64,000 bases of DNA from a plasmid. Positions 45,001 through 51,000 of this stretch are shown in pieces. The stretch lies in NCBI RefSeq assembly GCF_057098645.1, contig NZ_JBXSPU010000002.1; one strand, written 5' to 3'. Position 1 is the stretch's first letter, and each line of letters begins with the position of its first letter. The position numbers were made by a program.

Positions 45001-48000
45001 AGCCTCGAATATAACGCCAAATACGGCAAACGACCTGGCGCGTCGATTTATGGTTTTTTATCGAACCGTTTTGCATCCTTTTTTTCCAGAATGATTCAGG
45101 CCTCTGAAAGCGAGGCTCCCTACGTACTTGACGGCTTACTTCATAACGAAAGTTCTGTGGTAATTCATGAGCATGCCACCGATACAGCCGGTGCGACTGA
45201 AACAACATTTTCAATGTTTCACTCTTTTGGTTACAGACTCATACCCCGTATTCGCAACCTCGGCAGTCGCAGGTTGTACGTTATTTCCCCCTCAGAGGAA
45301 TATAAACCACTTGATGCCCTGATCGCCGGAAAGGCCAAAATGGAAGTAATAGAACAGCACTGGGATGAAGTTCTGCGGCTTAAGGCCTCGATCGGCGCTG
45401 GTCTGGTACCACCATCGGTAATACTGAAAAAGCTGGCAGCATCTCCGAGACAAAACAGGCTCAATCTGGCCCTGCGTGAAATGGGACGTATTGAACGCTC
45501 AATTTTTATCTGTGACTGGTTGCTTGACACTCGGTTACGTCGCAGATCACACGCAATCCTCAACAAAGGCGAAAGCCGCCATGCACTTGCCCGCGCTATT
45601 TTTCTTCACCAACTGGGCGAATTCCGGAACAGGGCTGCCGAGACAATGGCTCACAGGGCATCGGGCCTCAACCTTGTTGTTAATGCAATAATTCTGTGGA
45701 ACACGGTCTATCTCAGTCGGGCTGTTGATTACATTCGCAGCCAGGGGATCATTATACCGGAAGAGCTCTTGTCCAGTGTATCACCACTACCATGGGGTCA
45801 TATCTCGCTCACTGGAGATTACCTGTGGAACGAAATTGACCATCCCCTTGAACGATACAGGCCACTTCGTACTAATCGCTTCAATCCAAAGAACTTCACT
45901 TTTCCTTAGCGTGTGTTATCGCAGAAATGCCCACGGAACCCCTATGAGCGCAAAAGGTTGCTGCTACGATAATGCCTGCGTGGAAAGCTTCTTTCATTCG
46001 CTGAAAGTGGAATGTATCCATGGAGAACACTTTATCAGCCGGGAAATAATGCGGGCAACGGTATTTAATTATATCGAATGTGATTACAATCGGTGGCGGC
46101 GGCACAGTTGGTGTGGCGGCCTCAGTCCGGAACAATTTGAAAACAAGAACCTCGCTTAGGCCTGTGTCCATATTACGTGGGTAGGATCACAGAGGCAGTT
46201 CCAGTGTTAACATGAACCGCCGTATGCGGAGCCGCATGTACGGTGGTGTGATAGAACCACGGCAGCCTGGCGGCTGCAAATTGAAAACCGCCCCGGTTCG
46301 TCCTGTTGTTGCCGCACGCCCCGCAGAATATGTATGCTCTGAGGACCTGTTTTATTAAGGACTCATCCCCTTATGTTGACCCGCAAAAGTATCGATACAG
46401 TTCTGCTCTCTGTTGGTGCTGAGAAGCTCTCACAACGAGAATGGGACTGGATGAAAATGCTCAAACCCATGGACCCACCACCTGCGATGGTGACGACCTC
46501 CATCCTGAAGCGCCGTGGCGATACAGCAGCCCTTACCCTGCTACAGGATACCGGGGTTTAATCCATCCTCATGTTGTCCGGTTTTACTCCCCGCCCTCTG
46601 AAACGTCTGTTCACAGCCAACCAGTGCTGGACGTCCTTCCTGGATGCGGGCGGTCTGCGCGATATCGAGGTTGAAGCCGTCACCAAAATGCTGGCCTGCG
46701 GCACACGGATACTGGGTGTAAAAGAGTTCGGGTGTGATAACCCGGACTGTCAGCACGTAAAGTACCTGACCAACTCATGCGGCAGCCGTGCCTGCCCGTC
46801 CTGCGGAAAGAAGGCCACAGACCTGTGGACAGCAACACAGCTGAATCGTCTTCCTGACTGCGACTGGGTACATCTGGTCTTCACCCTGCCGGACACGCTG
46901 TGGCCGGTGTTCGAAAGCAACCGCTGGCTGCTGAATGACGTGTGCCGTCTGGCGGTGGAGAATCTGCTGTTAGCGCCAGTGATATAAGACGGTAATTCAC
47001 CATTTGGATTGTCCGCTCCACCCAACATGTTGTTTCCTTAAGGTTCTCACACCAAAAAGGACATCAACATGCTGAGCAGAGAGGACTTTTACATGATAAA
47101 GCAAATGCGCCAGCAGGGCGCGTACATTGTCGATATTGCGACTCAGATTGGTTGCTCTGAACGAACGGTCAGACGTTACCTCAAATACCCTGAACCGCCA
47201 GCCAGAAAAACCCGCCACAAAATGGTTAAGCTGAAACCGTTTATGGATTACATCGACATGCGCCTGGCAGAGAATGTCTGGAATAGCGAGGTTATCTTCG
47301 CGGAGATTAAGGCAATGGGCTATACGGGCGGACGTTCCATGCTGCGTTACTACATCCAGCCCAAACGTAAAATGCGTCCGTCAAAAAGAACAGTTCGCTT
47401 CGAAACTCAGCCCGGATACCAGCTCCAGCACGACTGGGGCGAAGTTGAGGTGGAAGTTGCCGGGCAACGGTGCAAAGTTAACTTTGCGGTTAATACGCTG
47501 GGGTTCTCCCGCCGCTTTCATGTCTTCGCTGCCCCAAAACAGGATGCTGAGCATACCTACGAATCACTGGTTCGCGCCTTCCGCTACTTCGGTGGTTGTG
47601 TGAAAACGGTGCTGGTTGATAACCAGAAGGCTGCGGTGCTGAAGAATAACAACGGGAAAGTCGTGTTCAACTCCGGATTCCTGTTGCTGGCTGACCACTA
47701 TAACTTCCTGCCACGGGCATGCCGTCCACGCAGGGCCAGAACAAAAGGTAAGGTTGAGCGGATGGTGAAATACCTCAAGGAGAACTTCTTCGTCCGGTAC
47801 CGCAGGTTCGACAGCTTCACTCATGTCAATCAACAACTGGAGCAATGGATAGCCGATGTGGCTGACAAACGGGAGCTTCGTCAGTTCAAAGAAACGCCGG
47901 AACAGCGCTTCGCGCTGGAGCAGGAACATCTGCAGCCGTTACCCGATACGGACTTCGATACCAGTTACTTCGACATCCGCCATGTGTCCTGGGACAGCTA

Positions 48001-51000
48001 TATCGAGGTTGGTGGTAATCGTTACAGCGTTCCCGAAGCGCTGTGTGGTCAGCCGGTATCGATACGAATATCGCTGGATGACGAGTTGCGGATCTACAGT
48101 AATGAGAAACTGGTGGCCTCACATCGCCTCTGTTCGGCATCGTCTGGCTGGCAGACAGTGCCGGAGCATCACGCCCCGCTCTGGCAGCAGGTCAGTCAGG
48201 TGGAACATCGGCCACTGAGTACCTATGAGGAGCTGTTGTGATGCATGAGCTGGAAGTCCTGCTGAGTCGCCTGAAAATGGAGCATCTGAGTTATCACGTT
48301 GAAAGCCTGCTGGAACAGGCAGCTAAAAAAGAGCTGAACTACCGGGAGTTCCTGTGCATGGCGCTACAGCAGGAATGGAACGGCAGGCATCAGCGGGGTA
48401 TGGAGTCCAGGCTGAAGCAGGCTCGTCTGCCGTGGGTCAAAACGCTGGAGCAGTTCGACTTTACCTTCCAGCCGGGCATCGACCGTAAGGTTGTTCGGGA
48501 ACTGGCTGGTCTGGCGTTCGTGGAGCGCAGCGAAAACGTGATCCTGCTGGGACCTCCTGGTGTAGGAAAAACGCATCTGGCCATAGCTCTTGGCGTGAAA
48601 GCGGTGGATGCGGGACATCGGGTACTGTTTATGCCACTGGACAGACTGATCGCGACACTGATGAAAGCGAAACAGGAAAACCGGCTGGAGCGTCAGCTAC
48701 AGCAACTGAGTTATGCCCGGGTGTTGATCCTGGATGAAATAGGCTATCTGCCGATGAACAGAGAGGAAGCCAGCCTGTTCTTCCGGCTACTGAACCGTCG
48801 ATATGAAAAAGCGAGCATCATACTGACGTCAAACAAAGGGTTCGCAGACTGGGGAGAAATGTTCGGAGATCACGTGCTGGCAACAGCGATCCTGGATCGG
48901 CTGCTACATCACTCAACCACGCTGAATATCAAAGGAGAGAGTTACCGGTTAAAAGAGAAACGTAAAGCTGGAGTGCTGACCAAAAACACAACGCCAATCA
49001 GTGATGATGAAATGGTGAAAAGCGGACAGCATCAGTAACGAAAGTATTTTAGCGGGCATGAAAATGGCAAATAACGGTCAAACATCGTGGCGTTGACATC
49101 TGCTGTATGCCGCCCGAAAACGGGGGCTGGAACCCGGTATCTTCTGCGCCATCCACACGTATGGCCGTCGTCTCAACTGGCATCCGCATGTACATGTGTC
49201 TGTAACCTGTGGAGGTCTGAATAAGCATGGTCAGAGGGGATGGCAATGCCGGAGTCGTTGTCACATATCACGACGGAATCACAGTGGAGAAGCCTGGTGC
49301 TGAAATCCGGCGGAAAATACTGGCATGTGTACATGTCGAAGAAGACAGCCGGAGGGCGGAATACGGCACGCTACCTGGGTCGTTATCTGAAGAAGCCACC
49401 AATAGCGGCTTCCCGACTGGCTCATTACAACGGAGGGGCAAGCCTGAGCTTCCGTTACCTGGACCACAAAACGGGAGAAACGGCGACGGAAACGCTGACA
49501 CAGCGTGAGCTGGTCGCGAGGCTGAAACAGCACATCCCGGAGAAGTTTTTTAAGATGGTGAGGTACTTCGGGTTCCTTGCCAACCGTGTGTGTGGAGAGA
49601 AGCTGCCGCAGGTGTACCGTGCACTGGGGATGGATAAACCGGAACCAGTGGCGAAAGTGTGCTATGCACAAATGGTGAAACAGTTCCTGAGTCGTGACCC
49701 GTTCGAATGCGTGCTGTGTGGCTGCCGGATGGTATACCGCCGGGCCATTGCGGGGCTGAATGTATCAGGGCTGAAGAAAAACGCGCGGGATATCAGTCTA
49801 CTGAGGTATATGCCGGCCTGACACAGGCTAAGTGTGCCCGGGAATCGGTGAAAGTATAAAAAACAGCCTGTTACGGTATAAAAATCGACCATACAGAGAG
49901 GGAAACCACCGGAGTGGTGGGAAAAGCAGAAAGGCTCACGTGGCATAAGGCGTGGACAATGGTATCGACTGGTTTTTCAATTTCCTATACGTGAACAGTG
50001 CAACAGGCGGAAAGAGTACTGAGCAATTTGATCATCTACTGCTTGAGGTATCATCAGAACATCAGCTTATGGATGTTTGATCCTACCCTCGTAATATGGA
50101 CACTGCTCTAAGCGAGGTTCTGGTTTTCAAATTGTTCCGGACTGAGACCGCCACACCAACTGTGCCGTCGCCAGCGATTGTAATCACATTCGATATAATT
50201 AAACACCGTTGCCCGCATTATTTCCCGGCTGATAAAGTGTTCTCCGTGGATACATTCCACTTTCAGTGAGTGAAAGAAGCTTTCCACACAGGCATTGTCA
50301 TAGCAGCAGCCTTTTGCACTCATGCTCCCGCGTAGATTGTGCCGTTTCAGCAGGGCCTGATAATCAGCTGAACAGTACTGGCCTCCACGGTCGGTGTGAA
50401 CAATGACATTTTCCGGACGCTTACGCCGCCATAGCGCCATTTGCAGTGCATCACAGGCAAGCTGTGCCGTCATCCGTGATGACATTGACCAGCCGATAAC
50501 CGCACGCGACCACAGGTCGATGACCACCGCCAGATACAGCCAGCCCTCATCGGTACGCAGGTACGTGATATCACCTGCCCATTTCTGATTCTGGCCACTG
50601 GCGTAAAAATCCTGCTCCAGCAAATTTTCTGACACAGGCAGGTTGTGTGCTCGGTAACTGACCGGACTGAACTTCCGGGAGGCCTTTGCCCTCAGCTCCT
50701 GACGGCGCAGACTTGCCACCACAGTTTTTACGTTAAAGTGGTAACCCTGAGCACGTAGTTCATCCGTCAGGCGTGGTGCACCGTAACGCTGTTTTGACCG
50801 GGTAAAGGCCACGAGGACAACGCTGTCACAGTGCTGACGGAACTGCTGACGAGGGCTTATCCTTGTCCGCCGCTGACACCACGTATACCAGCCGCTACGG
50901 GCCACCCGGAGCACGCGGCACATTGCCTTGATGCTGAACTCAGCCTGATGTTTTTCAATAAAGACATACTTCATTTCAGGCGCTTCGCGAAGTATGTCGC

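What the first reader, a model, noticed from the sequence alone, without database searches (positions are those of the whole stretch)
46571..49821. IS21 (2131 bp, 5-bp duplication TCTGC) inserted inside an IS91-family transposase gene
This is a clean insertion with TGT...ACA ends and matching TCTGC flanks. It splits a second, divergent IS91-family transposase whose 3' part is also frameshifted.
Basis: seen in the sequence. Interest (0 to 1): 0.35.

Follow-up and report, generated by a model that had tools for sequence, protein, structure and literature searches.

The report
IS21 inserted into a defective IS1294
A complete copy of the well-known insertion sequence IS21 has jumped into the transposase gene of another well-known insertion sequence, IS1294, which already carried an 85-bp deletion; this is ordinary mobile-element nesting on an E. 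coli virulence-type plasmid.

Summary
Window 46968-49098 is a complete 2131-bp IS21 with TGT...ACA ends, intact istA and istB, and a 5-bp target duplication TCTGC (46963-46967 and 49099-49103). It is 98.6% identical, without gaps, to the IS21 of the IncP-1alpha plasmid pBS228, and 100% identical to copies on six other plasmids.

The interrupted element is not an unknown divergent IS91 relative. It is IS1294 itself (window 46254-49992). Apart from one 85-bp internal deletion, it is 100% identical to a copy annotated "IS1294 transposase".

Removing IS21 plus one TCTGC restores the reading frame exactly. The "frameshift" further downstream is this 85-bp deletion, which lies between TGGTCAG microhomologies at 49228-49234.

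Natural pre-insertion alleles exist:
- pCAU16175_2 has the same 4.8-kb left flank and the same deletion, but no IS21.
- pZ1323HEC0399-2 has neither lesion.

The likely order is therefore IS1294 insertion, then the 85-bp deletion, then IS21 insertion. The exact IS21/IS1294 junction was absent from PLSDB, from complete E. coli RefSeq genomes and from GTDB representative genomes, so the event is recent and private. It is mechanistically routine. Interest is low and both elements are already known.

The parts
46254..49992 (+). Whole nested element: IS1294 (with 85-bp deletion) carrying IS21. Length 3739 bp = 1688 - 85 + 2131 + 5.
   Evidence: Alignment to three IS1294 copies in different contexts. 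The boundaries have a 4-bp ambiguity because GAAC adjoins both ends.
46254..46967 (+). IS1294 left part: the terIS end (GAAC 46254-46257, palindrome GCAGCC-TGG-CGGCTGC), the 62-aa ORF, and tnpA codons 1-133.
   Evidence: 100% identical to L002, L001, L005 and L007. The end assignment follows PMC13181058.
46373..46561 (+). Conserved 62-aa ORF upstream of the IS1294 tnpA. It is annotated as hypothetical protein WP_000957857.1 in other copies and has no Pfam hit.
46571..46967 (+). IS1294 tnpA 5' part (Zn_Tnp_IS91 zinc-binding domain). As it stands, the ORF reads into IS21 and stops at 46987 (138 aa).
46963..46967 (.). Left copy of the 5-bp target-site duplication TCTGC.
   Evidence: present as a single copy in the empty sites
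46968..49098 (+). IS21, complete, 2131 bp, in the same orientation as the IS1294 tnpA.
   Evidence: 100% identical copies elsewhere. (98.64% identity, 29 mismatches, 0 gaps against the pBS228 IS21).
46968..47017 (+). IS21 left terminal inverted repeat region (TGTTAGCGCCAG...).
   Evidence: Gapped alignment of the two ends
47069..48241 (+). istA, 390 aa: DDE transposase with HTH, rve and Mu-transposase C-terminal domains.
   Evidence: NF033546, 284.9 bits. 389/390 identical to pBS228 IstA.
48241..49038 (+). istB, 265 aa: AAA+ helper ATPase. Its ATG overlaps the istA TGA.
   Evidence: (PF01695, 302.6 bits). 265/265 identical to pBS228 IstB.
49049..49098 (-). IS21 right terminal inverted repeat region (...CTGGCGTTGACA).
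49099..49103 (.). Right copy of the 5-bp target-site duplication TCTGC.
49104..49821 (+). IS1294 tnpA 3' part. The HUH motif (HPHVH) lies in frame with the 5' part; the frame then shifts at the deletion, and the Y2 motif region (YLGRYLKKPP) lies in the 193-aa ORF at 49240-49821.
49228..49234 (.). Junction of the 85-bp deletion: the retained copy of the TGGTCAG microhomology. The intact element has GCATGGTCAG...85 bp...GCGTGGTCAG.
49822..49992 (+). IS1294 oriIS end, including the palindrome CCACC-GGAG-TGGTGG and the terminus ...TTTTTCAATTTCCTATACGT.
   Evidence: The end assignment follows.
49993..49996 (.). GAAC (GTTC on the other strand): the target tetranucleotide abutting oriIS.
   Evidence: It is present next to this end in three unrelated contexts. 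GTTC is the stated IS1294 target.

Best explanation
An IS1294 copy (IS91 family, rolling-circle HUH-Y2 transposase) sat on this plasmid between an IS3 remnant and an inverted IS3-like element. It first lost 85 bp inside tnpA, probably by slippage or recombination between two TGGTCAG repeats. This put the catalytic-tyrosine half of the gene out of frame. Later an active IS21 integrated into codon 133 of the same gene, between the zinc-binding domain and the HUH motif. IS21 uses the IstA DDE transposase together with IstB, an AAA+ target-capture helper. Its staggered cut at the target was repaired to give the 5-bp duplication TCTGC. The result is a doubly inactivated IS1294 that keeps both of its ends, and an IS21 that looks fully functional. 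What is shown: the element identities, the boundaries, the duplication, the restoration of the frame, and the existence of alleles without IS21. What is inferred: the order of events (by parsimony), the slippage mechanism of the deletion, and the present activity of IS21.
For: Boundaries, ends and TSD. End-to-end matches, 100% identical, to IS21 copies on six other plasmids. 98.64% ungapped identity to the IS21 at the canonical IncP-1alpha location in P. aeruginosa pBS228, which there has a 4-bp TSD (ACGT), with IstA 389/390 and IstB 265/265. Domain content of IstA and IstB. The exact IstB sequence carries the UniRef name 'Insertion sequence IS21 putative ATP-binding protein'. The host element is 100% identical to a copy annotated IS1294 apart from the 85-bp gap. 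The reconstituted protein has Zn_Tnp_IS91 and Y2_Tnp domains. Natural alleles: L007 (100% over 4816 + 899 bp, with the deletion, without IS21), L001 (100% over 4982 bp of right flank, with the deletion, without IS21), and L005/L006 (100% over 4817 bp, with neither lesion). Literature: 5-bp direct repeats for IS21-family integration and the requirement for IstB (PMC10122671); IS1294 target GTTC and the oriIS/terIS organisation (PMC13181058).
Against: Nothing contradicts it. Four caveats apply. The order 'deletion first, IS21 second' rests on parsimony: no allele with IS21 but without the deletion was found. The flanks of IS1294 copies in related plasmids have been reshuffled, so lineage inference is not strict. 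IS21 activity was not tested. The expected subterminal multiple repeats of IS21 were seen only as short motifs.
Confidence: 0.96

Rival explanations
1. The two IS1294 pieces are separate partial copies brought next to IS21 by recombination or assembly, not the two halves of one gene split by a single insertion.
For: IS1294 flanks have clearly been exchanged among related plasmids, so recombination is active in this region.
Against: The halves abut to the base, with exactly one 5-bp duplication. The joined sequence is 100% identical to uninterrupted copies. Both flanks match L007 continuously across the site.
Confidence: 0.01
2. The downstream frame break is a single-base frameshift or a sequencing error.
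For: Reading the window alone shows only a change of frame near 49230-49240.
Against: Alignment to intact IS1294 shows a clean 85-bp gap bounded by TGGTCAG repeats. The identical deletion is present in two copies in an independently sequenced plasmid, pCAU16175_2.
Confidence: 0.01
3. IS21 has a preferred target in this stretch of IS1294-type tnpA genes, so the nesting reflects a hotspot rather than chance.
For: In pB16EC0771-1 an independent IS21 (98.2% identical) sits in an 87%-identical IS1294-like tnpA. It lies 72 bp upstream of the window's site, in the same orientation, with its own 4-bp TSD GACA.
Against: There are only two independent events. Both ISs are very abundant on these plasmids (3782 and 3149 PLSDB records with matches), so co-occurrence is expected. 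None of the other records showed an IS21/IS1294 junction. The two target sequences (TCTGC and GACA) share no motif.
Confidence: 0.06
4. The nested unit (3739 bp) still moves as one piece. Its intact oriIS and terIS would be used by an IS1294 transposase supplied in trans, carrying IS21 as cargo.
For: Both IS1294 ends are intact. The transposase-dead, 85-bp-deleted version exists as two copies with different flanks in pCAU16175_2, which could reflect trans-mobilisation.
Against: No second copy of the IS21-bearing unit was found anywhere. The two deleted copies in pCAU16175_2 can equally be explained by recombination or inversion. No intact IS1294 is present in the window.
Confidence: 0.1

Closest known systems
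IS21 (IS8) of IncP-1alpha plasmids R68.45/RP4; compared here with the copy in P. aeruginosa plasmid pBS228 (NC_008357.1, 51191-53321)
   Same: The length is identical (2131 bp), with 98.64% nucleotide identity and no gaps. Both have TGT...ACA ends and overlapping istA/istB. IstA is 389/390 and IstB 265/265 identical.
   Different: There are 29 substitutions, including TGTTAGC versus TGTCAGC at the left tip. The TSD is 5 bp here and 4 bp (ACGT) in pBS228. The host context is enterobacterial.
IS1294 (IS91 family; Tavakoli et al. 2000, cited in PMC13181058); compared here with the copy annotated 'IS1294 transposase' in Salmonella plasmid pST3553 (AP014566.1)
   Same: 100% identity over all 1603 retained bases. 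It has the same upstream 62-aa ORF, the same ends, and GAAC/GTTC next to oriIS.
   Different: The window copy lacks 85 bp inside tnpA and is interrupted by IS21, so it cannot encode the 399-aa transposase.
IS21 nested in an IS1294-like element in E. coli plasmid pB16EC0771-1 (CP088772.1)
   Same: The same pair of element types, the same relative orientation, and an insertion in the same part of tnpA.
   Different: It is an independent event: the site is 72 bp upstream, the TSD is the 4-bp GACA, the host element is only about 87% identical to IS1294, and the IS21 is 98.2% identical.

Membership tests
IS21 family / IS21 isoform | Two consecutive genes: istA (DDE transposase with N-terminal HTH) and istB (AAA+ helper ATPase). 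| tested here: met
   Pfam rve, HTH_23 and Mu-transpos_C_2 for IstA; IstB_IS21 at 302.6 bits for IstB. NCBIfam transpos_IS21 at 284.9 bits and IS21_help_AAA at 301.9 bits, both above their cut-offs. IstB matches the solved IS5376 IstB structure at E = 5e-68.
IS21 family / IS21 isoform | Imperfect terminal inverted repeats ending 5'-TGT...ACA-3'. | tested here: met
   The ends align over about 50 bp with two 1-base gaps. The termini are TGT and ACA.
IS21 family / IS21 isoform | Short target-site duplication (5 bp observed experimentally for the family; 4 bp also seen). | tested here: met
   TCTGC on both sides, present once in the empty sites. The 5-bp figure comes from PMC10122671. 4-bp TSDs are seen in pBS228 and pB16EC0771-1.
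IS21 family / IS21 isoform | Multiple subterminal repeats in each end (L1/L2, R1/R2), the IstA binding sites. | tested here: inconclusive
   No 16-mer pairs with at least 13 matches were found. By eye in the same output, only short recurring motifs appear (CACCATTT / GCCATTTTCAT, TGTCCGCT).
IS21 family / IS21 isoform | Near-identity to the named element IS21. | tested here: met
   98.64% over 2131 bp against the IS21 at the RP4-type location in the IncP-1alpha plasmid pBS228. The ISfinder reference entry itself was not available.
IS21 family / IS21 isoform | Transposition activity. | not testable with these tools
   Both ORFs and both ends are intact, and identical copies occur in six other plasmids, which is suggestive only.
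IS91 family / IS1294 | HUH-Y2 transposase with an N-terminal zinc-binding domain. | tested here: met
   After in-silico excision: Zn_Tnp_IS91 (78.3 bits) and Y2_Tnp on both gene parts (44 and 116.6 bits). The HUH motif HPHVH is visible in the translation.
IS91 family / IS1294 | No terminal inverted repeats and no TSD; distinct oriIS and terIS ends; a GTTC target tetranucleotide next to oriIS. | tested here: met
   GAAC (= GTTC on the other strand) abuts the oriIS-side terminus in the window, L002 and L007, which have unrelated flanks. The left end carries its own GAAC. The features are as described in PMC13181058.
IS91 family / IS1294 | Sequence identity to IS1294. | tested here: met
   100% over the 1603 retained bases against the pST3553 copy annotated 'IS1294 transposase'. 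The intact length is 1688 bp.
IS91 family / IS1294 | Intact transposase gene (an autonomous element). | tested here: not met
   The gene is split at codon 133 by IS21 and frameshifted by the 85-bp deletion. This is a defective copy of IS1294, not an autonomous one.

The most novel reading that the evidence does not exclude
IS21 preferentially integrates into a roughly 100-bp stretch of IS1294-type transposase genes, just downstream of the zinc-binding domain. Two independent insertions lie 72 bp apart in the same orientation, which hints at a structural or sequence hotspot recognised by IstB/IstA.
Probability: 0.06. Interest if true: 0.25.

Novelty: already known. Interest (0 to 1): 0.06.

Why it matters
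It matters little beyond annotation. It lets the region be labelled correctly as IS1294 with an 85-bp deletion, interrupted by IS21, rather than as several 'hypothetical', 'zinc-binding domain' or 'IS91 family' fragments. It gives a dated order of events and a private structural marker (the IS21/IS1294 junction) that could be used to track this plasmid lineage. It also identifies an apparently functional IS21 on a virulence-type plasmid. It raises no new mechanistic question.

Tried and rejected
- I looked for the exact IS21/IS1294 left junction in three collections. It was absent from PLSDB (0 records with at least 80% coverage), from complete E. coli RefSeq genomes (0) and, as an exact 38-mer, from GTDB representative genomes (0). 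The source record could therefore not be identified.
- I tried to fetch RK2/RP4 by accession (BN000925 and L27758), but they are not held. The IncP-1alpha plasmid pBS228 was used instead.
- I tried to read the classic IS21 papers (PMC552178 and PMC11337337) and searched for 'IS21' with '2131 bp'. Nothing was held or found. The figure of 2131 bp for the reference element therefore rests on the pBS228 copy measured here and on my own recollection of ISfinder.
- I looked for a true empty site for the IS1294 insertion itself. pKKo009_1 (L008) shares the left flank up to GTGTGATAG but then continues differently (GGACGGCGGG...). The original IS1294 target could not be reconstructed, and IS1294 flanks have evidently been exchanged between copies.
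- A search for IS21 subterminal repeats by ungapped 16-mer comparison found nothing above threshold.
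Full report

Yes. The sequence reads ...GCGGTGGAGAA-TCTGC-|TGTTAGCGCCAGTGATATAAGACGG ... CATCGTGGCGTTGACA|-TCTGC-TGTATGCCGCC. 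The segment between the bars is window 46968-49098, exactly 2131 bp, and it begins with TGT and ends with ACA. The 5-mers on either side (46963-46967 and 49099-49103) are identical.

The target continues with TGT and the element ends in A, so the apparent repeat is 9 bp (ATCTGCTGT). The boundaries are nevertheless fixed independently. Megablast against PLSDB gives end-to-end matches (query 1-2131) to IS21 copies in other contexts, six of them 100% identical. The net insertion relative to empty sites is 2136 bp, which equals 2131 + 5.

**2. What is the inserted element?**

It carries two genes. The first is istA (47069-48241, 390 aa), with HTH_23, rve and Mu-transposase C-terminal domains; its NCBIfam transpos_IS21 score is 284.9 bits against a cut-off of 160. 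The second is istB (48241-49038, 265 aa; its ATG overlaps the istA TGA), with Pfam IstB_IS21 at 302.6 bits and NCBIfam IS21_help_AAA at 301.9 bits. IstB also matches the solved IstB of IS5376 at E = 5e-68.

The two ends align as imperfect inverted repeats over about 50 bp.

As a reference I used the IS21 at the classical RP4/R68 location, between parDE and aphA, in the P. aeruginosa IncP-1alpha plasmid pBS228. The window copy is 98.64% identical to it over all 2131 bp, with 29 mismatches and no gaps. IstA is 389/390 identical and IstB 265/265.

The exact IstB sequence carries the UniRef name "Insertion sequence IS21 putative ATP-binding protein". The exact IstA sequence is named "IS21-like element IS21 family transposase" by NCBI.

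This is therefore IS21 itself, in an enterobacterial isoform. A 5-bp duplication fits what is reported for IS21-family integration (PMC10122671). The pBS228 copy has a 4-bp duplication, ACGT.

**3. What is the interrupted element?**

Removing 46968-49103 gives one frame that reads through the join...DVCRLAVENLL-YAARKRGLEPGIFCAIHTYGRRLNWHPHVHVSVTCGGLNKHGQ. The reconstituted protein has Zn_Tnp_IS91 and Y2_Tnp domains.

The joined DNA (46190-46967 + 49104-50079) matched 3149 PLSDB records, most of them annotated "IS91 family transposase" and some "IS1294 transposase". A three-way alignment shows that the window is base-for-base identical to the IS1294 of Salmonella plasmid pST3553 (annotation) from 46254 to 49998, apart from one 85-bp gap.

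The element is therefore IS1294 and not a new divergent relative. It is "divergent" only with respect to the other IS91-family gene in the window (41192-42181; 35% amino-acid identity).

The intact element measures 1688 bp. GAAC adjoins both ends. According to PMC13181058, IS1294 ends in GTTC at terIS and inserts next to a GTTC target at oriIS. I therefore place:
- terIS, with its own GAAC, at 46254-46257;
- the oriIS terminus (...TTTTTCAATTTCCTATACGT) at 49992;
- the target tetranucleotide at 49993-49996.

Three copies with unrelated flanks (the window, L002 and L007) all share GAAC at the oriIS side. A 4-bp ambiguity in the boundaries remains.

**4. The "frameshift".**

Intact IS1294 reads AATAAGCATGGTCAG-TGGAAAAAG...GAAAGCG-TGGTCAGAGGGG. 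The window reads AATAAGCA-TGGTCAG-AGGGG. So 85 bp, bounded by the 7-bp repeat TGGTCAG (9 of 10 matches with the preceding bases), are missing at 49228-49234.

This removes residues around 177-205 and shifts the frame. The HUH motif (HPHVH) and the tyrosine motif region (YLGRYLKKPP, in the 193-aa ORF at 49240-49821) are now in different frames.

The deletion is not a sequencing artefact. It is present in two IS1294 copies of the independently sequenced plasmid pCAU16175_2 (L001; L007).

**5. Natural empty sites and order of events.**

| Locus | Plasmid | Match to window | 85-bp deletion | IS21 |
|---|---|---|---|---|
| L007 | pCAU16175_2 | 42155-46970 and 49098-49996, 100%, running straight across the IS21 site | present | absent |
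| L001 | pCAU16175_2 | 49098-54079, 100% | present | absent |
| L005, L006 | pZ1323HEC0399-2 (L005), pZ1323HEC0422-2 (L006) | 42154-46970, 100% (L005; 99.98% for L006); tnpA is intact (1200 bp) | absent | absent |

L005 and L006 have instead lost the equivalent of 49829-50628, which covers oriIS, the spacer and part of IS3.

No allele with IS21 but without the deletion was found. The parsimonious order is IS1294 insertion, then the 85-bp deletion, then IS21 insertion. This order is an inference.

The exact IS21/IS1294 junction is absent from PLSDB, from 5,426 complete E. coli genomes and from GTDB representative genomes. The IS21 event is therefore recent and private to the source lineage.

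**6. Mechanism.**

The identities, boundaries, duplication and reading-frame consequences are shown directly. The following comes from established knowledge of the families (PMC10122671; PMC11208146 abstract):
- IstA tetramers synapse the IS21 ends.
- IstB, an AAA+ ATPase, captures the target DNA and recruits and activates IstA.
- Staggered strand transfer and repair produce the short duplication.

As it stands, the IS1294 tnpA ORF encodes 133 native residues plus LAPVI and then stops. IS1294 here is doubly dead but keeps both ends. IS21 looks intact and is probably still active. Both of these last statements are inferences.

**7. Comparison and novelty.**

Both elements are long known, and IS-in-IS nesting is commonplace on large enterobacterial virulence and resistance plasmids. 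The surrounding window carries an autotransporter gene, an EspF-like effector gene and a group II intron, and related plasmids covering this region also carry PerC and NleG genes.

The only mildly curious point is a second, independent IS21 insertion in an IS1294-like tnpA (about 87% identical) in pB16EC0771-1. It lies 72 bp upstream, in the same orientation, with its own 4-bp TSD GACA. Two events among thousands of plasmids that carry both elements do not establish a hotspot.

**8. Verdict.**

The finding is ordinary and already known in kind. Interest is about 0.06.

Noticed in passing
window 42155-45942: A compact Tn3-family element (3788 bp) with tnpR 42330-42962, tnpA 42943-45909 and 38-bp terminal inverted repeats GGGGTTCCGTGGG... 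(36/38 matches). The 5-bp flanks differ (ATAAG versus TATGA), so no target duplication is visible. Its right flank (the IS3 remnant) is conserved in related plasmids, while its left flank varies.
   Followed up: partly
window 41192-42181: This is the 'first' IS91-family transposase gene in the window (NCBIfam transpos_IS91, 242.7 bits; 35% amino-acid identity to IS1294 TnpA). It is cut at its 3' end by the left IR of the Tn3-family element at 42155.
   Followed up: partly
window 45943-46189 and 50080-51337: A 247-bp 3' remnant of IS3 and a complete IS3-like element (orfA 50971-51270, orfB 50108-50974) lie in inverted orientation and bracket the IS1294::IS21 unit. The two are only about 93% identical to each other, so they are different IS3 isoforms.
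   Followed up: partly
L004 (CP088772.1, pB16EC0771-1) 3120-6511: An independent IS21 insertion (98.2% identical) sits in an IS1294-like tnpA that is about 87% identical. It is 72 bp upstream of the window's site, in the same orientation, with the 4-bp duplication GACA.
   Followed up: partly
L001 and L007 (NZ_CP047380.1, pCAU16175_2); L005/L006; L008: IS1294 flanks are reshuffled among related plasmids. pCAU16175_2 has two copies with the 85-bp deletion: one keeps the window's left flank and the other keeps its right flank. L005 and L006 have an 800-bp deletion that removes oriIS. pKKo009_1 shares the left flank but has no IS1294 and continues differently. This suggests recombination or inversion between IS1294 copies, or trans-mobilisation of the defective copy.
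   Followed up: partly
window 46373-46561: A conserved 62-aa ORF lies immediately upstream of the IS1294 tnpA, in a position analogous to orf121 of IS91. It has no Pfam match and is annotated 'hypothetical' in every copy seen.
   Followed up: no
window 56554-57780 and 51529-56071: A group II intron reverse transcriptase/maturase gene (TIGR04416, 377 bits), an EspF-like effector fragment (51529-51996) and a 1327-aa autotransporter gene (52088-56071) point to an EPEC-type virulence plasmid context.
   Followed up: no
protein cluster 3: Several C-terminal or partial fragments clustering with IS1294 TnpA are named 'EAL domain-containing protein' or 'Urf2 protein' in public records. This looks like an annotation error propagated across databases.
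   Followed up: no
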